The notes below the pieces were generated by a model. The model was not told the DNA's origin. It ran no database searches and saw only the letters and a program-made list of their open reading frames with translations. A stretch of 63,019 bases of DNA, filler included, from Chrysochromulina tobinii (taxonomy: Eukaryota): assembly GCA_001275005.1 (NCBI GenBank). It is 6 parts of 6 records of this genome, joined end to end, with 100 filler letters (N's around TTAATTAATTAA, not from the genome) between each part and the next. Parts side by side here need not be neighbours in the genome. Positions count along the whole stretch, not along the records: positions 1 to 7,149 come from JWZX01001007.1; 5 more parts are not named here. One strand, written 5' to 3'. Below are positions 1 to 58,290 of the stretch, piece by piece (the stretch's first letter is position 1; every line of letters starts with the position of its first letter). The position numbers and the translations under genes are program-made.

Positions 1-209
1 CGGCCCCCGTGAGGGGTGTGACAAGGGTGCCCCGGGCGCGCGGCCCCCGTCGCCTGACGCCAGCGCCGCGCGCCCCATTGCCGCGCCGGCTGCTGGCCAG
101 CCGGACGCCTCGCTGCTACGAGCTACTACGCAGTCGTCTGAACCCTTTGCACCCGCCAATGCGCCTCATGCACCCACCTTTGCGCACCCGAGAAGTCATC
201 TCCATGCTC

Positions 210-1478
210 TCATGCGTCGAATTCGGGCGTTGTACCGGGCGCATTGCCGTTGGCCCAGGCGCCCCAGTAGGAGACCCCCATCGAATGCAGCTCGCCTGGG
301 AGATTGCCGCGGTAGCCCACGGCCGATGAGGTCGCCAGCTGCGAGACGCCGTGGATGGGCGGGATGCGCTCGTGCTGCAGGCGCGTGCCCGAATGGTCGC
401 GCTGGCTGCCTGTGGCGCGTGGGTCAGCCTGGGCCACCGAGCCACCAACCACAGCGGAGCCAAAGTGGTGTTGGCTGGACGGGATGTGCCCGGCGTAGCC
501 TGCTTTGACGCCACCGACCACATGCTTATAGGTCTGTTCACTTGGAGTCCCTCGCTCAAACGATGGGCGCTGCCAAGAGCCATCCGGCGACGAGGGCGAC
601 TGCTGCTGGGGGCTCACGCTGCTCGCAGAGCCTCGGCTGTGAGGGGACGCGAGAGCCAAGTACGCAGGGGCCGCGCCTTTGGGCGACGACTTCTGGTAGC
701 CGATACGCACACGCGAGCTGCCGCCCGTGGGCTGCGTCGTGGGCGTCTTGGCGCCCACGACCGTCGGACGACCGCGCTCAGAGGGCGGCGCGCCCGAGAG
801 GAGCGGATTGAAAGTCTGTACGTTGTCCGTCACCTCGCTGTCGACGATGTCGCGCGCGCCGTAGCGGTGGCCGGCATAGCCGGGGATGTCGCGCCCGGTG
901 CCGCCGCGCTGCGAGGGCTTGGACGGCGGCGACGACGCCTTGGGCGTGAGTGGACGCGAGGACGGCGGCGTGTAGAAGCGATCGGAATACTCGGTCATCG
1001 CGCCCTCGTCGCCGCCTCCGAGTGTCGTCATGTTGCGTGGCCACTCGTCCGAGCGGATCGCGCTGGTCCCGTTCCACTCGTTGGGATTGGGTGGATGTGC
1101 CATGATGGGTGCGCGCTGGGACTGGTGGTGGTAACCGGGGTGCTGGCGCTGCTGCTGCTCGAGCATGGCCAGCCGCCGCTGCTGCTCCTCGAGGGCCGCC
1201 TCCTGCTGCCTGATCGCCGCCTGCAGCTGCTCGCGCTCGTTGAGGCCGGAGAGCGTCTGCGGCCGTGACGGCGATGACGATGGCGGTTGGTCGTAGCCGG
1301 CCGAGTAGCCGCCCCACAGTGGTACTCCGCCGATGTGGCTCGAGCCGTGGTGATCCTGCGCCATCGGCAGGTGGCCACTGTAGCCAGGAACCTTGCCGCC
1401 GGACGAGTAGGCATACGATTGCTCGGTCTTGTCGGTGTGGTCCCACGAGGGACGGTAGGAGCCGGGCGTTCGACGCAT
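210..1478 (-). CDS. FAM166/CIMIP2-like (DUF2475) ciliary microtubule inner protein
   Basis: Four GYxGxxP-type repeats (VPGYSGHLP, IPGYAGHRY, KAGYAGHIP, VGYRGNLPG) in a disordered P/S/Q-rich ORF. First in-frame ATG at 1478. Confidence 0.6.
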   Translation of the reverse strand: MRRTPGSYRPSWDHTDKTEQSYAYSSGGKVPGYSGHLPMAQDHHGSSHIGGVPLWGGYSAGYDQPPSSSPSRPQTLSGLNEREQLQAAIRQQEAALEEQQRRLAMLEQQQRQHPGYHHQSQRAPIMAHPPNPNEWNGTSAIRSDEWPRNMTTLGGGDEGAMTEYSDRFYTPPSSRPLTPKASSPPSKPSQRGGTGRDIPGYAGHRYGARDIVDSEVTDNVQTFNPLLSGAPPSERGRPTVVGAKTPTTQPTGGSSRVRIGYQKSSPKGAAPAYLALASPHSRGSASSVSPQQQSPSSPDGSWQRPSFERGTPSEQTYKHVVGGVKAGYAGHIPSSQHHFGSAVVGGSVAQADPRATGSQRDHSGTRLQHERIPPIHGVSQLATSSAVGYRGNLPGELHSMGVSYWGAWANGNAPGTTPEFDA

Positions 1479-1748
1479 AGCGATCTCAGGGCGGGACCCC
1501 TGCGACCCTTTCAGCGACCACAAGGTGCCCGTCGACAGCGCGCAAGTTTGCCAATTTTCATGTTGGCAACATGTTCTGGACGAGATCGATTCCGTTTAGC
1601 GGACGAATTTGGGAACGTGTATTGTGGCGCGCTTTCATTACCCCGCGTATCGAACATGGTAATTTTCGAAACCATTCCAATTTCCGCGATGGATCTCGGC
1701 ACCAGATTCCTTTCTCGGGCACTCTGCACTGCGGGCGATTCGCACGTC

Positions 1749-3313
1749 ATGGCGTCCTTGGAGCTCGTCGGAGCTCCGTCGAGTTCGCACGTGTGCGCAG
1801 TCAACACCTGGCTCGCCACATGGCTGTTTGACCTTGGCTTCGAATCGTGCAACCGCGACTGCTTGGGCTCGGCTGTCACCGATGGCATGCTGGCTGCGCA
1901 TGCTCTGTGGTCCGCCTGGCGGCTTCGCTCGTGGCTTGCTCGTACCCGCCAACAGCAGGTGCAGCGTGAAGCCATCACGAGGGCAGCCACCCAGAGCCAT
2001 TCCACCGGCCCGACTGGCTGCTCCTACGCGACGCAGCCCAGCATGCTTCTGTTGACCAGAGAGGACAGCCGCTGGAGCTTTGGCACGCTCGCCGTAACCC
2101 TCATGGCCACGAATGGCGTCTGGGCATCCGTGGGCGCGAGCTACTGGCTACAGCCGGGTGGCCAGCGATGGCCTACGCCCGAAATCTTTGAGGTGCTTTG
2201 GCGCATCAACTCGCTATGCCAGGCACTGCTCATCTACGTCGCGTACCTGGTGGCGCTCACGATCATCCGTATCGGGGGCGTTTGGCCCGCAGTGGCGCGG
2301 CACGAGCCGCTGCTGCTGCGGCTCGCGCTCGTGCACGCGGCGATCTTCGGCCTCGTGTGCCTCTGGCCCGGTCTCTGCGCGCAGCGTGACTACGTGCTCT
2401 GGGGCGGGGTCAACATCATGCCGCCGCTGCTTACGCAATGGGGCGCCATCGTGACCCTCGTGCTCCGCCACCGGCTGCACCGCAGTCTCGAGAGCCTGGC
2501 GGTGCCGCGCCGCGACGGCACGGTCGCCTTCGGCCTATGGCTGCCGCGCCACGCCCTCTTCGGCGCCGCTGCCTCTGGTATCTGGTTCTGGCTGGGCAAC
2601 TCAGCCATCTTTCTCGGCCGACATCAAGGGCTCGCCCTGTGGATGCGTCAAGCCGCGAGCAGGCTGCTGCGCCTTGACCCCGAAGGGCTCGACCCCGAGT
2701 GCGTGCCACGCCCCGGCTCCAAGACCCCCCTCACCCCACTCGCACGCACCTCGCAAGCAGACGCGCCCTCGCCCCTCCTCTCCCCCCGGCCCCCTACCCT
2801 TTTCCCCTCCCCTATCCCGTCCAACGTGCTCCACGACGGCGCCCCACCTGCCACGCCCACGACGGCGTCCCTCCTGCCACACCTTGCACCTCGCTCGCTC
2901 ACGCGTGCTCGTGCTTGCTTTGTGCTTGCTTTGTGCTCCTCAGTGGCGGCGTACCCCCTACAGCCTTCGAGGAGATGGCCGTCTTCCACATCTTCGGCAT
3001 CGTGGGTAACGAGCTTCTGTTTCGGGCGTATGGGTGGATCGCCATGCTCGAGGCGAGCCTGCCTCTGAGCCCGACGCCCAGCCGGACGCCCAGCCCGACG
3101 TCCACGCCGCCGCTCAGCTCCCGGCGCAGCACGAGCCCAAACGCCGAGGAGGTGGACGCATGCCCGACGACAGCTGAGGCCGTGGGCACCAGCTGGCGCC
3201 CCCAGAGCCTCACCGGACGGCGTTCCCCGCCGGTGGTGGTGATCGACGAGTCGTGGCTGGCCACCATGCTGGCTGGCAGCAGCGCCACGCCCAAGAAGGC
3301 CAAGGCCGCCTAG
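1749..3313 (+). CDS. Multi-pass membrane protein, possibly DUF6962-like; 2 exons (1749-2698, 2944-3313)
   Basis: Several hydrophobic helices, AVTDGMLA near the N-terminus and MAVFHIFG near the C-terminus. A GT..AG intron at 2699-2943 joins ORFs 1287..3068 and 2699..3313 in frame (GA|T = Asp). Start codon uncertain. Confidence 0.55.
2699..2943 (+). other. Spliceosomal intron
   Basis: GTGCGT donor, C-rich body, pyrimidine tract ending CTCCTCAG. Removal restores the frame. Confidence 0.75.
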
Positions 3314-3887
3314 CCCGACCGACGCTCTCTCGCATCATCCCCGTCGGCTGGGCGACGCTCAGCCCAATGCATGCACAGCGTGGGTACGCACCGCGCGCTC
3401 GAACGCTTCCTCGCTGCACCGTGTACGTTTGCCGTACCACAGCATGAGTCAGTCACAGCATGCCATGAGTATGAGGCTGTTGTGGGCTGGCACCACACCT
3501 GTCCACTCCGCGGGAGGAGCGCGCGCGGGCAGTACCGTAAAAGATCGGCGGAGTGGAACGTACACGGGCTGCGGCTGGCGGACGTATCGGAACGAAACCG
3601 AAGTACCAAACGGTGTGCTCGGTGGCTCTGGCTGGTTGGATGGTCTGGTGGTACACGGTGATATATCGTCTGATAATTCTCAGACGGTACACAAAGACCT
3701 TTCCGAGTCGCGACGCTCCTAATAACCGCCGCGGCGCGGCGCGCGGGCTGCCGGCGCGGGGACGGTGGACGGTTTTCACCGCCCCGCTCCCCGTCACTTA
3801 CGGCCGCAGGTCTTGTAGCTCCTCTTTCCGGAAGGTAGCGCCACTTGAAGACGCGGCTCAACAAGCCTCGACGCTGACAAACCTTGT

Positions 3888-5030
3888 TCACGCATAGAAG
3901 GGCTCGGCACGCGCCCACCACATCTCCGGATCGACGGCGCCTGACGCGCGAAACACGACGCCCTCGCCCTCGAGTCGTGTACGTTGCGTATCGCCCCCCG
4001 CACTGACCGGTAGGCTGCTCTTGCCGGATGCGCCGATGACGCGCCACCAGGGCAAGCCACCCGCACACAGCCCCTCTTTGAGTAGGTGGCCCACCTGGCG
4101 TGCGTTGCGCGGCGCACCAGCGAGCGCGGCCACCTGACCGTACGATGCGACGCGCCCCGGGGGGATGGCACTCACCACGTGCAGCACGCACCGGGCAAAC
4201 GCACCCCCCGAGGTGGAAGCAGGCCGTGGGCGGGGTGCTGCCGGCGGCGCTGTCTCTGGCAGTGCAGCAGCTGGTACCACGGGCGTGCCCACGCTCTCCA
4301 CAGCTGGTCTCGCCGAACTGCTGCGCTGCACAGCGGCGGTTGCTCCCATGTTGTTCTTTCGTGGCTTCGCTGAGGGATCCTTCGCCTGCATGGTCAAATT
4401 GTACGCGCACGCGTGCTCAAACCACTTGCGCAGTTGCACGTCACCCCGGTACTGCGCCGGTTCGACCAGCAGCGTGCCCGGGAACACGCGAGAGGCACCC
4501 GGCTTCTCTGAAGCGCAACGGCGGACGCCCACCGGATGCGATGCGAGGAGCCGCTCGACGGCGGGCTCACCAACACGAACGAGCAAGGTGTCCGAGGTGA
4601 CTCCGACGCCGAGAAACATGTGGCCACGCACGAGCCACATGCACATCCCAAACATCGTGCGTTCCTCGAACGTGTGATCTTCGGGAAGGTACTCCTCTAT
4701 GAAGCGGCGCACATTGCCGATCATCACCGACTCGGCAGCTGCCGGAGTTGGACGCGTGGTAGCTCTCCTCTTCGGCGCCGGCGGCACGTTGGTCGGCTCT
4801 GGCGACGAATCGTCATCGTCGTCATCGTCGGGAAGGGGCAGCGGTTCGGGCGCCACCTCCCGTCGGACGCGCTTCGAGGCCCGTGTCGGCTCAGCCTTTG
4901 CCTTCGCAGCCTTGGGAGAGCGCGGAGTTGGAGCAACCTTGGGTGGCACGACGGTCTCAAGTCCGAGCTCGACCAACCGTGCACGATTGCGTGCGATGTT
5001 CACCTCACGCTCAAGTTCGTAGGCCGACAT
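3888..5030 (-). CDS. Fusion: CDCA7-like N-terminal helix + TfoX_N domain + alkyltransferase-like (ATL/MGMT family) domain
   Basis: N-terminal SAYELEREVNIARNRARLVELGL. TfoX_N-like ERTMFGMCMWLVRGHMFLGV...LLVRVG...LRKW. C-terminal IPPGRVASYGQVAALAG..NARQVG..LPWWRV..Q..RLEGEGV. Confidence 0.8.
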   Translation of the reverse strand: MSAYELEREVNIARNRARLVELGLETVVPPKVAPTPRSPKAAKAKAEPTRASKRVRREVAPEPLPLPDDDDDDDSSPEPTNVPPAPKRRATTRPTPAAAESVMIGNVRRFIEEYLPEDHTFEERTMFGMCMWLVRGHMFLGVGVTSDTLLVRVGEPAVERLLASHPVGVRRCASEKPGASRVFPGTLLVEPAQYRGDVQLRKWFEHACAYNLTMQAKDPSAKPRKNNMGATAAVQRSSSARPAVESVGTPVVPAAALPETAPPAAPRPRPASTSGGAFARCVLHVVSAIPPGRVASYGQVAALAGAPRNARQVGHLLKEGLCAGGLPWWRVIGASGKSSLPVSAGGDTQRTRLEGEGVVFRASGAVDPEMWWARAEPFYA

Positions 5031-5102
5031 CGGAATTGCTCTCCTTCCACTAAGTCAAGTCAATGTGTTAAAGTTGTAGTTGTAAGTTGTACATGTAAGT
5101 TC

Positions 5103-7149
5103 TGTGAGAAAGGGGACTCGGCGACTCGCTCTACGTGCTGTCGAGTACGTCCGAAGGAAATGCCTGAGGCTATCCTGAGGCTGCCCTGTCAGATGGTCCC
5201 TACCGTCTTGTGCTAGTGTGTGCCCCCTGTGTGTGGCCCTTATCCTGGCTTGCGGCCCCCGGAGCGTGGCACCGCGCTCCGATTTCCTAATCGGGCGCGC
5301 GCTCGCTTCCCTTGAGGAATTGCGATCGCTTCCCGCGGAGCGCGCTTTTCTCCTCAGGCGTGAGTCGGGGGCTGCTCGTCTGTCGAAGCTCTCTGTGCAC
5401 TCCGTGTGCGACGCCTAAAGTTACTCACTACTACTCAAGTAGTCACTCTTTCCCACGTGGTATCGGTGGTGGCCCGGACTACCTCCTGCCCATCCAACTT
5501 CGACCGATCGAAAATGTCAACGCTATCCGCTGCAACGACGCACGACCATGAGTCACCGTCAACACCGACCTACTCAAACGGCGAGCCCATCCTCTACACG
5601 GGCAATCCCGCCGAGCTCACGGGCATCCTCGAGGCCCTCGACGAGCATTTCATCAACAACGGCCTCTTCCAGCCGCTCCTCACGCACGGCGCGGTCCTCT
5701 TGCGCAATGGCAAGGTTGCCGTCGATTCCTTCACTTCCGCAACATTTCTCACCGACCCGGCCTACGCGGCAGGCGTGGGCTCGTTCGCAGAACCGTACGA
5801 ATCCGCCGCGAAGAGCGTCGCCAAGTACAACGCGACCCCGGCCGGCAAGAAAACTGCGCTCACCGAGGTGACGACCAAGCCGACCGACTTTGACACCCAG
5901 TTCATCGTCTCGCCCGAGATGTGCAAGGCGGAGGACAACAAGCTCCTCAAGACCGTGCTCAGCATCATCCCCAACGAGACCATCGCCGGGCGCCTCCGTA
6001 CCGCCGCCAAGGGCAGCGGCCGGACCCTTCTCAACCTCCTCCGCACGGAGTCCACCAAGGCCAAGCCAGCTGACACGGCCCTCGTGGAAGCGACGTTCAA
6101 CGCCCATGTCCTCAACAAGCTCCACGGGGCCCCGATCACCGCGGAGAATCTCGCGGCCTTCGTCGAGAAGTACAAACAACTCGAGGCCATGTTGCCGAGC
6201 AAGATGAGGAAGCAGCAGACCGACGGCACCAGGCTCGAGATCATCAACCAGCTCGCGCAGGTCGACCCCAACATCTGCGAGCAGTATGAGCTCCGGATGA
6301 CCGCGTTGGGCACCAGCGCGCCCTCCAACATGGACGACGCCGTCGCGCTCATCGAGGAAATCCTCCGCACGAGAGCAGCGCGCGCCAAGCTGGCCGCACT
6401 GTCCGGCGGCGCCAAGCAGCTCGGCCTCGTAGCCGGCAACGCGACCGTCGCCGACCGCGACCCAACCAAGAACAAGCCCGGCGACGACAAGAAGACCAAG
6501 AAGTCCAAGCCGCCCCGCCGCCCCGACGGCAGCAGGAAGGGCGAGCTCATCAAGTGGGTCGAGGGCATGGACCTCTGCAAGTGCGGCGGCAAGCACCTCT
6601 ATCGCGACTGCCCCGACCCGAAGACGAAGGCCTGGTTCGACGCCTCCAAGGCCAAGAAGGACGCCGAGAAGGCGAAGACCGCCCTCGCAGCCGACGCCGC
6701 GCCGGCGGCCGCACCAGCATCGGCTCTCGTGTCCGCTAGCGGAGGGGTTGGCGCCACGACCATGGTGACCATCTCCGGTGATCACACGACCGACGAGCGC
6801 GCCCTCCTTGCCCAACTTTCCGGCTTCCTCAACTCCGCCGCGCCGTCGAAGGTCGTGCACTGGAGCGAGACCACGAAGGCCGCGCACTCCGCCAATGTTG
6901 CTAAGACCAAGGTCATTGACGGCGTCGTGCAACTCGTCGAGCCATCTCCAGACGAGCTCTCCCTGGCCGCCGCCCTTGGGATCACCACCGCCGACTTTGA
7001 TCAGAGCAACACCCGTTGCCCCGACTTCGTGCCTGGGTGCTCGGGCACCTGCGCCCGTCAATACGAGACCGATACCGCCGACAGCGCGAGCTCCGACGAT
7101 GAACCCGATCCGGCCCCGCGCTGCGAGGAGTGTGCCGACAACCCCGATG
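5103..7149 (+). mobile_element. 5' part of an LTR retrotransposon (probably Ty1/copia), truncated at contig end
   Basis: Putative LTR at 5103-5457 with imperfect terminal inverted repeat (TGTGAGAAAG...CTTTCCCACG), directly followed by a TGGTATC PBS-like site at 5458 and then a gag ORF. Confidence 0.7.
5514..7149 (+). CDS. Gag-like polyprotein (partial)
   Basis: Long ORF after the PBS, with a Lys-rich region and zinc knuckle variant CKCGGKHLYRDC. Runs into the N linker. Confidence 0.7.
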
Positions 7150-7249: not shown

Positions 7250-9658
7250 CGCTGCCGCGCCCGCTGCCGCGCCCGCTGCCGCGCCCGCTGCCGCGCCCGC
7301 CTTGCCGGCTGCCACGCCGGCTGCCACGGCCGCTGCCGGCCGAGCGGGCGCGCGCTTCTTAGCCAGGCTGCGCTGGGCGATCGGTTGCTCGTCGTCCTCG
7401 GAGCTCACGCTGTCTGCCGAGAGCTGATCAAGCGTCAGATCGAGGGCGAGATTGGTCGCGAGATTGGTCGCCTTCGCTGACGCCCACGCCGGTCGGTTGG
7501 GCGCCGGCGCGGGCGCGGCTGTCGGAGCGAGGTCGGCAACGGCAGTGGTGGCGGCGGCTGTCGACACGGGACCACCCCCTGGCCGGTGCCCTGGCCGGTG
7601 AGGCGAGTGGTTCTCCTTGGCAGCCCCGATGGTGCCGCCCGCTGGACATGCCGCGGCCCCAACGTCGCCGCCGTCGCCGCCCGCCCGCGGTCGAATGCCC
7701 GCAAGGACGTTGCTACCATCGCATGAGGCTCTCTTGCTGCCGCCAGCGCTGCCAACGCCGGCCGCGCCACAGCCGCCGGCCCCGCCGCCGGCTCGTGCTG
7801 CGCCACGTCCAAGGTCGACCGTGTGCATCTCGAGCTTTTGTGGATCGTCTACCGGTAGGAACGGTTTCGATGGCTGGTGCAGCTGCAGGCCACGACCGGA
7901 GCTCATCGCGTCGCTCATCCGCTCGGCGAGGCGCGTGGTCTCGCGATGTTTCCGCTCCTCCGCCTCCGTGAGCAGCATGAACACCTGCCCCGCCTCTTTT
8001 CGACCGGTGCGCCCAAGCCGCTGCACCAATCGGATGGGCGAGTCGACGGCATCGAAGAAGACGACCAGGTTGACCTCGCCTATGTCGAGACCTTCCTCAG
8101 CGACTGACGTGGCGACGAGGACATTGTACACGCCCGATCGGAAGTCGTCGATCGTACGCCTCTGCTCCAGCTGCCCCATGCCGCGCGCACCGGCCCCATG
8201 CCCCACGCGGTTCGATCGTCCGACAAATGGGGCCGCGCGTACGAGCCCTCGGAGCCTCGAGCTTCCCGCCAGATGCGCACACAGCGCCGACACATTCGCA
8301 CGCTTGTTGACGAAGGCGATCACGCGCGAGTGGGTGTCCGCTTGCAAATGCGCCTCGAGGAGCGTGCCGAGGGTCGCGAGCTTTGGCGCGATCCGTTGCT
8401 CCCATTCCATCGCGTGGCCGCCAAGCCGACCTAACGCTCCCACGGCGCTTGCCGCTTCGGAGGCGCGCGCACGTAGCGTGGCGAGCGGCTCACCGGTGAC
8501 GCCCGCCGCCTCGACAGCGCCCAGCAGAGGTTCGAGTTGCTCCAGCCGCGCACGCTCGTCGGCGTCCTCGGCGACATCCTCATCATCGCCAGCCTCGCCA
8601 TCGTCGCTGTGCGCGTGAGCCTCGATCTGGGCGATCGCCCCTTGGTCGCCCGCACCGGCCGCTTTGGGCCGGTCGCCCTCGGCCGCATCGGCCAGAGCGA
8701 CGAGCGCGCTCAGCAGCGTGTGGCACTCGTGCAGCGTGCGCACCTGCGAAACTGACGCCCCACCGAGCATCGCTGAGCCTTGCGCCGCCCTTGACAGCAT
8801 GCGCTCCAAGTTGGTTCCACAGAGCTGCATGGCGGCCGCATCGAGCTGACCGATGGCGACCGGGTCCAGCGCCTTCGCGTCGCACAGCCGTCGCAATGCC
8901 GAGATGCCTGGCTCCATGAGCATCTCGCGGTACGAGAGCGGGCGAGCGTCGCTGCCACTGCCGGCGGTGGGCACGCGGTGTGTGCAGATGGTGCGTCCGT
9001 GCAGAAAGGATAGCAGCTCATGCTCGGTGCGCGTCTCGAGCTTGGCGATGTGCAGCATGTTGATGACGCTCTGAACCTGCGCGAGGGTCGAGCCCGCAGT
9101 CGCTGACAGGCCCAGCACGCGCGCACCCGCGTGCTCGTCGGCCCGTTGCGCCTCGCGCACGTGACGGGCGACAAGCGCATACGCCTCCTTCTCGCTCCGC
9201 GCGTGGTGGCATTCATCGAAGACGAGGCAGCAGATGCGCGTCGGATCGCACAGGCCATTGCGCATGTCATTGTGGAGCACCTGCGGCGTACAGAAGATGA
9301 GCCGGGCGGCCGTGTGCGCCCACCGCTCCTTGCGTGCGGCGGGTGGCTCCTCGCCTGTGAGCAGCTGTGCATCCACCTCGGGCGAAAGACCCATGTAGGC
9401 GCAGCACGCGCCGACCTGCTGCTGGACGAGCGCACGGTTCGGGGCCATGAAGATGCACAGCCGGGTCGGGCACCACTGGAGGAAGTTGTGCAGCACCGCC
9501 GCGGCGACAAGCGTTTTGCCCGTACCTGTCGGCAGAGCAACCAGCGTGTTGTAGCACAAGGCCGTGCGCACGATCGCGCTCTGGTAGCACCGGTAGTCGT
9601 GCCCCTGCGGGTGCGGGAAGATTCCCACGCGCGCATGAGGCAGGTAACCACCCGGCAT
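7250..9658 (-). CDS. FANCM: FANCM/Mph1/Hef-family SF2 helicase (C-terminus truncated)
   Basis: YRCYQ..IV..AL..NTLVALPTGTGKT, FCTPQVLHND, DECHHA, LGLSATAG, GMGQLEQ, NVLVATSVAEEGLDIGEV, SPIRLVQRLGRTGRK. Confidence 0.92.
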
Positions 9659-54567: not shown

Positions 54568-57500
54568 CCCCTCCTCCCCCTCCTCCCCCTCCTCCTGCCG
54601 CGCACTCGCCCTCTGCTTCTTTGCGGGTAGCTCACTGTCTGGGCTGGGCAGCAGATGGGAGTAGCCCTGTCTTGTCGCCCATTCTTCAAAGGCAGGGTCA
54701 GATCCAGCGCGGTATGAAGAGTCAGCTCCAGCGCGGCACGAAGGAAAGGATCCGCCACTGATGGCACCGCCCATCCCAACGCTGCTGCTCGAAGACGGGA
54801 ACCCACCTCCAGAGGCACCTCGAGCTGCATCAACCTTGGCCATCACTCCGAAGATGCCACAAGTCTCTGCTATCCCGCCCGCCCCGCCTAGCAGGCTGTT
54901 GCTCCCAAACCAACCCGATGTGCTATGTGAGTATGTGTTCTGCGGATTCTCGTGGTGCATGGCCTCTCCAACTTGCCGACCGCCAAGCTTGTATAGCGCA
55001 GCGGCAAGCTCAGGGTCTTTCTCTCTTGCCCTCTTTCCTGCTTGGAGCAATTCACCACCTAGCTTCGCCTGCTCCGGGTTCATCGGGGTCTTGCCCTTCG
55101 GCGGCACGTGCACGCGCTCGCCTTGCACGGGCATTTGCGACCGCGGGGAGAAGGAACCGTCCGCGAACGCAGTGCGGTGTGACCTGCCCGGTGGTCCGCT
55201 CGGTGGTCCGCTCGGGACGCTGACACTGCTTCTCGCCGACTGCATGTAGTACATCATATCTACCGTTGGGCTGCATGGGTACACGTTCTTGTCTTGCACG
55301 TCTACAATCTTGCCAACTTGCCCTCCAACCCGTGAACCGGTCTCGATCCGCACCGTCCCTCGGTCGTTGCTCCAATCGACGATTATGCCGTTTTGCCCGT
55401 TGTAAATACAGTCAGCCCCGTACAAGCCTCCAACTTGCACGCGCTCGCCTTGCATGAGACCGTCCGGCGGTGGCGGCTGCTGCAGCTCTGGCGGTGGCGG
55501 CTGCTGCGGCGGAAGCGCCAGTGCTTGTTGCAGCTCATCGTCGTCGTCAGTCATTCTCTGTTCCATGTCGTCAGGAATCTCCTCATATGACCCAGGTCTC
55601 CCATCCCGTCTCATGATATGACGAAAATGCTCGACGTTGTGGTCGAGACTAAGGCTCTGCGGCCGAGCCGCCGGCAAGCACCACTCCTCTCTGCCGAAGA
55701 GAGGCTCCTCGGTGCCCTGCAGCGCTCTGAGAACATGGCAGCTGACTCGCTTCTTCTCACCTAGGAGCACAACGTGGATCCAGAGCCTATCTTGATCGGT
55801 GTTGACCATTTGCAGAGCACGCAGGCCACACGGATCTTCACGGAGCAGGCTGTGAGCCCTCACACGAAGAGCATCTCGCATTCCAGGGTCGACCAATGCG
55901 TCGAACGCCCGCTGCTTATCATCAGCGGGCGTGTATCGAGGGCCAATCATGCCTTGGACCGCCGCCTCACGCACATTCCCTTCCGAGTCTTCGAGCCTTG
56001 CGACGATCGCGGGCGCGTGCTGAGAGAGCGTCGCCGCATCCAGCTTGCCAAGAGTCGAGACCGCCGCCTCACGCACATTCCCTTCCGAGTCCTCGAGCCT
56101 TGCGACGATCGCGGGCGCGTGCTGAGCGAGCGTCGCCGCATCCAGCTTGCCAAGAGTCGAGACCGCCGCCCTACGCACATCCCGATCGGAGTCCTCGAGC
56201 CTTGCGAGCAGCTCGGCCTGACTCGGCACAGGGCTGGCCAGCGCCCCAGCGCCGTCTTGCAATGCCTCCGACGCCGCTTCGTGCGTCTTGCGCACGCAGT
56301 CCTCGATGCCATCTCGATCATCTAGCCGTGCCACATGATCTCCGAGCTTGCAGCACCGAATGCCCTCGTCTAGGAGCGGTGCGCAACGCTGCCGCGCGAG
56401 CTGAAAGAGCGCATGCGCCGCAACTGGATGCATCAGCAACACGAGCAGGACCGACCCGCCACGCTTCCACACCATGTCGATGTCATCCACACCGACACCA
56501 GAAGGCCAGACGCTTGACTCTGTCAGCTCCTTCACTTTGGCCTCGATGATGTCCTCGACGGATGAGGTGCTGCTGCTATCACTTGGTGTCTCGGAGCCAA
56601 GGGTGACGACCATACTATCATCCCGAAGCGACGGGCTGATCGCGATTAATATTTCGCAGTTGCGGGTGCCCACCCGCGCCATCCGCCTCCTTCCAGGATG
56701 GTAGAGCTCGATCTGTACGAGTCGATAATCACCTTTGCAGATCTCGTCATCCAACAGCCCGGCCAGCACTTTACGCAGCCTCAGTACGCGCGCATCGTCA
56801 AAGGCGGAGATGTCTCCTTCAATGCACAGCGTGATCATCTCATGCGGTATCTTCGACGGCGATGTCAACGTGGTGCTGGTGCCGTCGGTGCTGGTGCCGG
56901 CGCCGGTGCCGGGGGTGTTATGGAGTAACATAGCTTGAGACAGCCAGTGCTTCGTAATCGGCTGGGCTCCAGGCATGTCGACGGGAGCTGGCAGGTGATA
57001 CGTCGCCATGGATTGCTGCAGCAAGTACTGCTTCAGAGCGGCTGCCTGCATGTCGATGGACGCGAGCTCAGCCTGACAATGTTGTGCCTTCCAGCTCTCT
57101 GATGCCGCCAGCTTGATGGTTTCCGCCGCCTGCTGCACATCAACTGCACTTGAGCTCGCAGCCGATGCGGCACAGGTGGCCCTATCGGCAGAGCTAGTCG
57201 CATCGACTGCGGCAGCATTCGCGCCCATGGTATGCAGAGCCGCATCTTGCTCGTGCCCGCGCGCCTCGGCCGCTGCTGCGCGTGCCTCATCCCGAGCCGC
57301 CAATCCTTGCTCCGCGTTGTGCATGGGGCGGCTCTCCAGCTGCCCTCGGAGACGTTCGCGAGCAGGTCGTCCGATGGGCTCGCACTGGATGTGATCGAGG
57401 ACCGCCCTCAAGGGCTTCTCCAGAGCCTCAATGGGCCGTGCCTTGCCATTTGGCCCCAAGTCCCCCCGAACACTGTGCACCGCCCAGCCGACCACAGCCC

Positions 57501-58290
57501 CGCTCGATGCGTTGACGACCGGCCCGCCGCTGTGTCCCGAGTAGATCGTCACCCCCAATTTGAGCCAAGCTCCAGAAATGTCTTTCTCGAAGCGGCCAGC
57601 GTAGTGTCCACGACAAGTGGTGGACGTGCGCTCAGCACCGAAGCCCATATCATTTCCTCCCTGGTGGCTGCCCTGCCCGTACCCAAGCAGCACGAGTTCG
57701 TGGCCCTCGACAAGCTCAGGTTCTGACGTGCGGCCCAGAGGCAGTGCGCCAGCAGGCTCACCGTCTCGATGCCATGGAAGCTCAGATGCGAGCCCTTGGA
57801 GCGGCCCACCCGTCCACTCACACAGCTGGAGAATGGCAAGGTCGATCCTCTCGTCGTTGTACACGATCATCTCTCGGGCTTCGGCAGCAGCAGACCAGGT
57901 CGATGGGATCGGGTGGGGATACCTGGGCTCGAGAGGCGGCTGGCTAACAAGCAGCAGCTTTGCGCGTCGAACCCAACGCACTCTCTCACCGATGCCGACG
58001 CCAATGGCAACGCCGTGATCCTTCGGGTCCAAAGGCGATGCGTGGAAACAATCGATAGCGACGTGGGCGCAGGTGCACAAGAGCCCACGATCCAGATCAA
58101 CTATCCAGCCGCTACCAATGAGAGCATTATCATCGGGTGCAAGGCTCTTCCGCACACCAATTGCCACCACGCCGCGCTGCCAGTGAGGTACAGTTGAGGA
58201 CATGAGCCGAGGTTCCCCCTTGTGCGGAACTCCACTGCAGAACTCCGTGGGCCTCCTGTGGAGCTCCGACGCGGGGTGATAGGCCGCCAT
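54568..58290 (-). CDS. Multidomain protein: trypsin-like serine peptidase + Ala-rich coil + TRADD-N-like domain + HEAT repeats + unknown domain + SH3/KOW-like segment (C-terminus truncated)
   Basis: Triad motifs TCAHV, DLAIL, GHSGGPVV. 34-aa HEAT repeats (ARLEDSEGNVREAAVSTLGKL). First in-frame ATG at 58290. Confidence 0.75.
55957..56207 (-). repeat. 102-bp coding tandem repeat (~2.5 copies, HEAT)
   Basis: Units start at 55957, 56059 and 56161 on the + strand and are nearly identical in nucleotide sequence. Confidence 0.9.

What the first reader, a model, noticed from the sequence alone, without database searches (positions are those of the whole stretch)
3888..5030. TfoX_N-ATL fusion with a CDCA7-like N-terminal helix
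Seen: one intronless ORF joins SAYELEREVNIARNRARLVELGL, a TfoX_N-like domain and an ATL domain. The ATL keeps the Tyr (SYGQ) and Arg finger (NARQVG) but has PWWRV in place of the catalytic PCHRV. Known: ATL proteins flip O6-alkylguanine without repairing it and hand it to nucleotide excision repair. TfoX_N is mainly prokaryotic, and a similar helix in CDCA7 binds the remodeler HELLS/DDM1. Inference: a eukaryotic alkylation sensor built from bacterial-type parts that may recruit a chromatin remodeler. I do not know of this architecture being described.
Basis: partly seen in the sequence, partly recalled or inferred. Interest (0 to 1): 0.7.

Follow-up and report, generated by a model that had tools for sequence, protein, structure and literature searches.

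The report
Alkylation sensor with remodeler-docking helix
This algal gene encodes one conserved protein that joins a cysteine-less domain likely to flag alkylated guanine, a bacterial-type domain that likely binds DNA, and a short helix predicted to dock on the chromatin remodeler HELLS, so it would bring that remodeler to damaged DNA, a link not found in the papers searched.

Summary
Window 3888-5030 (minus strand) is one 380-aa ORF from a Chrysochromulina-type haptophyte, covered by overlapping RNA contigs with no splice joint. The C-terminal domain is an alkyltransferase-like (ATL) domain: Tyr and Arg finger kept, Trp in place of Cys in all 51 family members where the motif is readable. The middle domain is a divergent TfoX_N/YjbR double-wing domain (below Pfam's cut-off, but supported by its relatives and fold). 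The N-terminal helix plus a downstream RxSxR motif is a mobile eukaryotic module, also found on SRA, HRDC and DDB2/WDR76-like proteins. A complex model docks the helix on haptophyte HELLS at CC2 plus SNF2_N, the site CDCA7 uses (score 0.73, best control 0.00), through the helix's invariant residues. Limits: no CDCA7 sequence could be compared; only one remodeler was modelled; the Emiliania ortholog is TfoX_N-ATL without the helix; nothing was tested at the bench. Best reading: an O6-alkylguanine sensor that recruits HELLS, a damage-reading counterpart of CDCA7. It is not a member of the CDCA7 family. Verdict: new variant of a known kind.

The parts
3888..5030 (-). Whole gene, 380 aa, intronless ORF
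   Evidence: RNA contigs without joints
4953..5030 (-). N-terminal helix (aa 1-26), predicted HELLS-docking helix
   Evidence: 11 invariant columns among 11 orthologs; AF2 helix 3-21, pLDDT 91-95; complex model
4869..4883 (-). RxSxR motif (RASKR, aa 50-54), candidate nucleosome acidic-patch anchor (inferred)
   Evidence: R50, S52, R54 invariant in 30 rows; 19 of 19 orthologs and 30 of 45 non-ortholog helix proteins against 39 of 700 background windows
4353..4730 (-). TfoX_N/YjbR-type double-wing domain (aa 101-226)
   Evidence: Pfam E 0.0013, below cut-off; relatives pass the cut-off; VIA Z 10.7 to 2a1v, 10.2 to 2od0, 7.1 to MotA-CTD 5jlt
3891..4208 (-). Alkyltransferase-like domain (aa 275-380): Tyr297, Arg311, Trp328 in place of Cys
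   Evidence: Z 14.3 to 2kim, rmsd 2.5, 101 aligned

Best explanation
The protein is likely a chromatin-tethered O6-alkylguanine sensor whose N-terminal helix is predicted to bind the remodeler HELLS/DDM1 at the site CDCA7 uses, so it would bring HELLS to alkylated DNA. SHOWN in sequence and tools: one conserved haptophyte protein with helix, RxSxR, TfoX_N-type and Cys-less ATL parts; a host-lineage HELLS with intact CC1/CC2. PREDICTED: the helix docks on HELLS CC2 plus SNF2_N. INFERRED from family knowledge: the ATL flips and holds O6-alkylguanine without repairing it; RxSxR anchors on the nucleosome acidic patch; the double-wing domain adds DNA contact in place of the AGT N-terminal domain; helix binding relieves HELLS autoinhibition so that the nucleosome is moved and excision repair or fork protection can reach the lesion.
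For: ATL hallmarks are kept; 0 of 53 family ATL domains have PCHRV (38 PWHRV, 12 PWWRV, 1 PWYRV, 2 without a readable motif). Complex model: score 0.73 (0.73/0.73/0.75), best of 3 controls 0.00; runs share at least 81% of contacts; partner pLDDT at least 70; the mark was reached by 51 of 78 solved and 2 of 108 mismatched microbial pairs, and by 39 of 65 and 2 of 126 eukaryotic ones. The interface is HELLS 78-92 (aligned to human CC2) plus 138-142, 168-170, 276 and 304-305 in SNF2_N, as described for CDCA7's HLBH (PMC11343034 section 11). Helix interface positions are more conserved than the rest (0.85 vs 0.64, p 0.013). The same helix sits on two WD40 proteins, one with DDB2 as best PDB hit, i.e. 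WDR76-like by inference; WDR76 binds the Neurospora HELLS homolog MUS-30, whose mutant is MMS-hypersensitive (PMC4714748 passages). It also sits on 5 SRA and 3 HRDC proteins.
Against: The Emiliania ortholog (XP_005780844.1) and other 274-331-aa forms lack the helix (0 hits at E<=1 in 16 of 17 helix-less proteins, one at E 0.64), although E. huxleyi has HELLS (PMC10538959 supplement). The partner in the model is a 34-residue peptide, a class the tool says is untested; only one remodeler was tried, and a pass does not say which family member binds. The HELLS used (P0284) is from the C. tobinii 90% cluster, not shown to be this strain's. No CDCA7 was among the 45 non-ortholog hits. There is no Arg at aa 338-343 where S. 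pombe Atl1 has Arg69, which contacts the flipped base (review PMC10779285). MUS-30 is not needed for removal of MMS-alkylated bases. No function is known for stand-alone TfoX_N proteins in what I read, and 0 of 80 bacterial TfoX_N loci had an ATL/MGMT gene within 3 kb.
Confidence: 0.55

Rival explanations
1. The helix does bind HELLS, but as a constitutive tether: the ATL rides with HELLS on heterochromatin or newly replicated chromatin and scans there, or competes with other helix-bearing adaptors; the lesion does not recruit or activate the remodeler.
For: The same model fits equally. The host lineage has other helix-bearing proteins (C. tobinii HRDC protein P0141). AF2 shows domains on flexible linkers (pTM 0.40), so no coupling between lesion binding and the helix is evident.
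Against: In CDCA7, the helix-bearing reader recruits HELLS to its DNA mark (PMC11343034 passages).
Confidence: 0.2
2. An ordinary Atl1-like sensor for excision repair; the helix and RxSxR serve nuclear import, nucleosome binding or another partner (for example a different SNF2 enzyme), and the HELLS model is a family-level likeness.
For: Helix absent in Emiliania and others. Part of the predicted site (138-142) lies in the ATPase lobe common to SNF2 enzymes. ATL domains fuse to many partners (ATL-AlkD; EndoV, review).
Against: Eight HELLS contacts lie in CC2, conserved in 25 of 28 haptophyte rows. Controls scored 0.00. The helix has 7 invariant positions in 30 family rows, far more than an import signal needs.
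Confidence: 0.17
3. The pocket has been repurposed to read a programmed DNA modification rather than damage, like the SRA proteins that share the helix; the double-wing domain adds sequence or mark specificity.
For: The helix is often paired with SRA methyl-DNA readers. No Arg69 equivalent. YjbR-fold domains occur fused to modified-base-reading EVE domains (PMC7641849 passages); weak fold match to McrB-N 3ssc (Z 4.0).
Against: The ATL domain matches vpAtl over 101 of 102 residues and is the most conserved large part (75% mean identity). Z 4.0 is in the noise range.
Confidence: 0.08

Closest known systems
Alkyltransferase-like proteins: S. pombe Atl1 (PDB 3gva), V. parahaemolyticus Atl (2kif/2kim)
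   Same: Cys-to-Trp motif, Tyr and Arg finger, fold over the whole domain
   Different: Those are stand-alone 108-116-aa proteins; here three further parts precede the domain; no Arg at the Atl1 Arg69 position
CDCA7-HELLS/DDM1 adaptor (HLBH plus zf-4CXXC_R1)
   Same: N-terminal helix predicted on CC2 plus SNF2_N; C-terminal DNA reader
WDR76/Cmr1-HELLS (MUS-30) complex
   Same: Helix plus RxSxR shared with two WD40 proteins, one DDB2-like; DNA-damage context
   Different: No WD40 domain; which part of WDR76 binds HELLS was not stated in the passages I read
Stand-alone TfoX_N and YjbR/MmcQ double-wing proteins (2od0, 2a1v, 2fki; MotA-CTD 5jlt)
   Same: Fold, invariant MFG and Trp
   Different: Long-branch algal clade (SH-aLRT 99), fused to ATL; no TfoX_C, so not a competence regulator
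Known ATL/AGT fusions (ATL-EndoV, AGT-EndoV, C. elegans AGT-2 with histone-like domain)
   Same: Lesion-binding domain fused to another activity (review PMC10779285 passages)
   Different: No nuclease; the partner is a predicted remodeler-docking module

Membership tests
ATL (alkyltransferase-like) | Active-site Cys replaced, usually by Trp | tested here: met
   PWWRV aa 327-331; 0 of 53 family domains with PCHRV
ATL (alkyltransferase-like) | HTH with Tyr and Arg finger | tested here: met
   Tyr297 and Arg311 align with Atl1 and vpAtl
ATL (alkyltransferase-like) | ATL fold including C-terminal extension, no AGT N-terminal domain | tested here: met
   Z 14.3, rmsd 2.5, 101 of 102 residues to 2kim, above AGTs
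ATL (alkyltransferase-like) | Atl1 Arg69 contact to the flipped base | tested here: not met
   No Arg at aa 338-343; vpAtl also has no Arg there in the same call, so it is not universal
ATL (alkyltransferase-like) | Binds O6-alkylguanine without transfer; hands to NER | not testable with these tools
   needs biochemistry
AGT/MGMT | PCHR catalytic motif | tested here: not met
   TIGR00589 30.3 bits against cut-off 46.4
TfoX_N (PF04993) | Pfam gathering score 30.1 | tested here: not met
   19.2 bits; one algal-clade relative, P0077, reaches 31.8
TfoX_N (PF04993) | Nearest non-algal relatives are TfoX_N proteins | tested here: met
   23 of 23 prokaryote-type hits scanned pass the cut-off
TfoX_N / YjbR | Double-wing (CyaY-like) fold | tested here: met
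   2a1v Z 10.7 rmsd 3.8/110; 2od0 Z 10.2 rmsd 3.2/102; the two are tied
TfoX/Sxy competence regulator | TfoX_C domain as well | tested here: not met
   no TfoX_C hit at E<=1
CDCA7 | zf-4CXXC_R1 domain | tested here: not met
   no hit
CDCA7 | Sequence homology of the helix to HLBH | tested here: inconclusive
   0 of 45 non-ortholog hits were CDCA7 in a word-limited search; no CDCA7 sequence obtained; the likeness is recalled, from no call
CDCA7 (works like) | Helix binds HELLS CC2 plus SNF2_N | tested here: met
   by model only: 0.73 vs 0.00, CC2 mapped
WDR76/Cmr1 | WD40 propeller | tested here: not met
WDR76/Cmr1 (shared module) | N-terminal helix plus RxSxR | tested here: met
   P0165 and P0167 carry both; their WDR76 label is inferred from the DDB2 best hit of P0167

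The most novel reading that the evidence does not exclude
This is a CDCA7 counterpart for DNA damage: a lesion-specific adaptor that flips O6-alkylguanine, anchors on the nucleosome and switches on HELLS at the lesion. The helix plus RxSxR would be a general eukaryotic HELLS plug onto which lineages have swapped readers (SRA, HRDC, WD40, ATL), giving the first direct lesion-to-HELLS link.
Probability: 0.4. Interest if true: 0.82.

Novelty: new variant of a known kind. Interest (0 to 1): 0.66.

Why it matters
HELLS/DDM1 enzymes have repair roles apart from DNA methylation (Neurospora mus-30 is MMS-sensitive yet not needed for methylation), but how they are aimed at damage is open. The review I read on AGT/ATL proteins never mentions nucleosomes (0 occurrences). 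A small protein that joins a defined lesion pocket to a predicted HELLS-activating helix makes both questions testable in a defined system. It also gives a 25-residue signature for finding further HELLS adaptors that Pfam does not model.

Tried and rejected
No whole genome is held, so whether the host also has a catalytic AGT, and its own HELLS copy, could not be checked. The FANCM-like helicase at 7250-9658 is not a proven neighbour: the window is 6 pieces joined by N spacers and the first ends at 7149. Bacterial operon origin: 0 of 80 TfoX_N loci hold ATL/MGMT within 3 kb (profile control positive); in 161 genomes, 1 of 17 TfoX-type matches lies next to an ogt gene (catalytic, reverse order, G079) and none is fused; rejected as support. 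Viral origin: no relative in viral contigs. Plasmids: 45 records, the 25 listed match the ATL part only. Helix profiles found no meaningful PDB chain. The ESM Atlas gave only unnamed eukaryote clusters under 0.9 and no named hit. The single-sequence fold of the middle domain was poor (pLDDT 54) and was not used. Attempts to obtain CDCA7 sequences failed: supplements held only zinc-finger alignments or figure legends, and a motif scan gave 2 chance phage matches. The TfoX tree names no donor. Gaps in RNA cover (3620-3703 in X12, 5048-5131) are not taken as transcript ends. Four primary papers (Tubbs 2009, Wilkinson 2012, Aramini 2010, Kato 2011) were not held.

Full report
OBSERVATION. Window 5030 to 3888 (minus strand) is one 380-aa ORF without internal stop. 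The window is six pieces joined by N spacers; this gene lies on the first, 1-7149. A protein from the second piece falls in the 90% cluster of a Chrysochromulina tobinii protein, so the host is inferred to be a Chrysochromulina-type haptophyte. No whole genome is held.

ONE GENE. In 6 RNA runs, all kept as contigs, no joint lies inside the ORF. One X11 contig spans 4393-5011 (most of the helix through most of the middle domain), one X13 contig spans 4159-4693 (middle domain into the ATL), and three overlapping X12 contigs span 3740-4774. No single RNA contig spans the whole ORF, and contigs cannot exclude DNA in the library. Two DNA runs that may be the source carry the gene on single contigs with no other letters. 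The stronger evidence is conservation: of 90 family proteins examined, 16 have helix, middle domain and ATL, 36 the last two, 16 the first two, 19 the middle domain only, 2 the helix only and 1 the ATL only; many are short-contig fragments or apparent exon mis-calls, and 5 of the 16 are at least 90% identical to each other. Against 10 distinct full-length orthologs, mean identity is 67% for the helix, 80% for RxSxR, 59% for the middle domain and 75% for the ATL, against 20-37% for the linkers.

ATL DOMAIN (aa 275-380). Pfam DNA_binding_1 E 8e-20. Best PDB hits by sequence and fold are the ATLs 2kif/2kim and 3gva, ahead of catalytic AGTs (Z 14.3, rmsd 2.5, 101 aligned). Tyr297, Arg311 and Trp328 match the residues that the review PMC10779285 (passages read) names for base flipping and Cys replacement. 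Of 53 family ATL domains, 38 have PWHRV, 12 PWWRV, 1 PWYRV, 2 no readable motif and none PCHRV. There is no Arg where Atl1 has Arg69.

MIDDLE DOMAIN (aa 101-226). Pfam TfoX_N gives 19.2 bits, under the cut-off of 30.1. A full HMMER search of 1.84 billion representatives gave 64 hits; I scanned 41 of them, and the 23 prokaryote-type ones (my label, from their grouping with named GTDB loci) all pass the TfoX_N cut-off and none carries an ATL. The AF2 model (mean pLDDT 76.8) matches YjbR-type 2a1v (Z 10.7), 2od0 (Z 10.2; that it is a TfoX_N protein is recalled, and it is the best PDB hit of my TfoX profile at E 0.09) and the DNA-bound MotA C-terminal domain (Z 7.1). PMC7641849 and PMC3424535 (passages) describe this fold as a predicted double-wing DNA-binding motif. 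The 24 algal-type domains form one long-branch group (SH-aLRT 99, quick tree, no donor). No prokaryotic fusion was seen: 0 of 80 loci had an ATL/MGMT gene within 3 kb, and 1 of 17 TfoX-type matches in 161 genomes adjoins a catalytic ogt. The fusion therefore likely arose in the algae.

THE HELIX IS A MOBILE MODULE. A helix-only profile gave 70 hits at E<=10 among 7996 candidates scored: 25 family members and 45 other proteins, whose named sources are all eukaryotes. Among the 45: 5 SRA, 3 HRDC (one from C. tobinii), 2 WD40, 1 SET, 2 EF-hand (one under cut-off), and weak zf-PARP, SPRY and GNAT matches; none has zf-4CXXC_R1. One WD40 protein has DDB2 as best PDB hit, which I read as WDR76/Cmr1 (paralogy recalled). 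The profile did not include the RxSxR motif, yet RxSxR follows the helix within 70 residues in 19 of 19 orthologs and 30 of 45 others, against 39 of 700 background windows. That is the non-circular sign of one homologous two-part module. Its reading as an acidic-patch anchor is inferred: likeness to the HMGN core motif is recalled, and bioRxiv 2024.06.26.600687 (passages) lists WDR76 and HELLS as acidic-patch hits but finds no general motif.

HELLS TEST. A motif scan of metagenomes gave 119 loci. Three resemble the E. huxleyi HELLS seen in the supplement of PMC10538959 (passages and supplement rows read); one was used to fetch 37 proteins. P0284 shares a 90% cluster with C. tobinii KOO23124.1; its best PDB hits are human HELLS and DDM1, ahead of ISWI, and its residues 31-96 align with human CC1/CC2. 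The complex of P0284 22-680 with aa 1-34 scored 0.73 (0.73, 0.73, 0.75), best of 3 controls 0.00; runs share at least 81% of contacts, partner pLDDT at least 70; alignments were not used. The mark was reached by 51 of 78 solved and 2 of 108 mismatched microbial pairs, and 39 of 65 and 2 of 126 eukaryotic ones; peptides are untested. Contacts are HELLS 78-92 (CC2) and four SNF2_N segments, the arrangement reported for CDCA7's HLBH (PMC11343034, section 11 read whole). On the helix they fall on the more conserved positions (0.85 vs 0.64, p 0.013), though any binding face would show that. My helix profiles match no meaningful PDB chain, which makes recall of a solved complex less likely but does not exclude it. 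No other SNF2 enzyme was tried.

AGAINST. E. huxleyi has HELLS, yet its ortholog (XP_005780844.1, XP_005767629.1; 273-274 aa) is TfoX_N-ATL without helix; loss, later gain or a missed exon cannot be told apart. The core fusion is thus already in databases, named only for the ATL domain. Neurospora MUS-30 binds WDR76 and is MMS-hypersensitive but is not needed to remove alkylated bases (PMC4714748, passages), so a HELLS role may lie in fork protection rather than access for excision.

LITERATURE. No paper held both 'TfoX' and 'alkyltransferase-like'. Searches for HELLS-binding helix or HLBH returned, as relevant hits among those listed, CDCA7 papers and one HELLS-PRDM9 paper (20 of 28 listed); WDR76 with HELLS and AlphaFold returned 2 papers, neither on this helix in the passages read. 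Further searches showed nothing on this architecture in their listings. PMC12885070 and PMC12718391 were read as passages. Most subscription papers are not held; bioRxiv supplements were closed, and figure alignments of HLBH could not be seen, which bears on the CDCA7 comparison. Earlier notes of this scan report the same module with SRA, DUF3427 and Tudor parts; they are leads, not support, and show that the module idea recurs while the ATL cargo was not among them.

VERDICT. Real, conserved, and undescribed in what I could search. It is a member of the ATL family, a divergent TfoX_N/YjbR relative, not a CDCA7, but predicted to work like one with a damage-type reader. Confidence in the full mechanism 0.55; interest 0.66.

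Noticed in passing
window about 5140-7149: High-copy repeat (DNA depth up to 30-50 times the flank over 5140-5400) starting about 110 bp upstream of the start codon, followed by a 545-aa ORF (5514-7148, +) with a Cys/His knuckle-like motif and no Pfam hit; probably a retroelement gag.
   Followed up: partly
P0128, P0138, P0152, P0153, P0154: SRA-only proteins, three from named fungi, carry the same helix and RxSxR: candidate CDCA7 analogues for methylated DNA.
   Followed up: partly
P0139, P0141 (C. tobinii Ctob_014549), P0143: Helix plus RxSxR plus HRDC domain(s): a second candidate HELLS adaptor in the same lineage.
   Followed up: partly
P0131, P0166, P0136, P0149, P0159, P0162, P0164: The module also occurs on large fungal proteins without Pfam hit, a SET protein, a SPRY-like, a zf-PARP-like and a plant EF-hand protein, and on P0164, whose C-terminus recalls DUF3427 (no Pfam hit).
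   Followed up: no
L202:1693-2518 (G079): Catalytic ogt directly followed (1 bp gap) by a TfoX_N gene in one proteobacterium; not seen in the 2 other genomes of its family or 50 others of its class.
   Followed up: yes
P0473, P0059, P0069, P0077: Stand-alone algal-clade TfoX-type proteins of 129-234 aa with basic ends and neither helix nor ATL.
   Followed up: partly
P0052-P0055: Bacterial-type ATL-AlkD glycosylase-like fusions of 338-345 aa.
   Followed up: no
window 5024-5030: A polyA contig of run X13 departs here and reads three extra codons after the start, as in ortholog P0003: a length allele just before the helix.
   Followed up: partly
window 54571-58290 (-): 1240-aa ORF joining a trypsin-like peptidase to HEAT repeats, an architecture more typical of bacterial conflict systems (recalled).
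   Followed up: no
window 7250-9658 (-): FANCM/Mph1-like DEAD and Helicase_C protein (family label recalled) on a different piece of the window; not a proven neighbour.
   Followed up: partly
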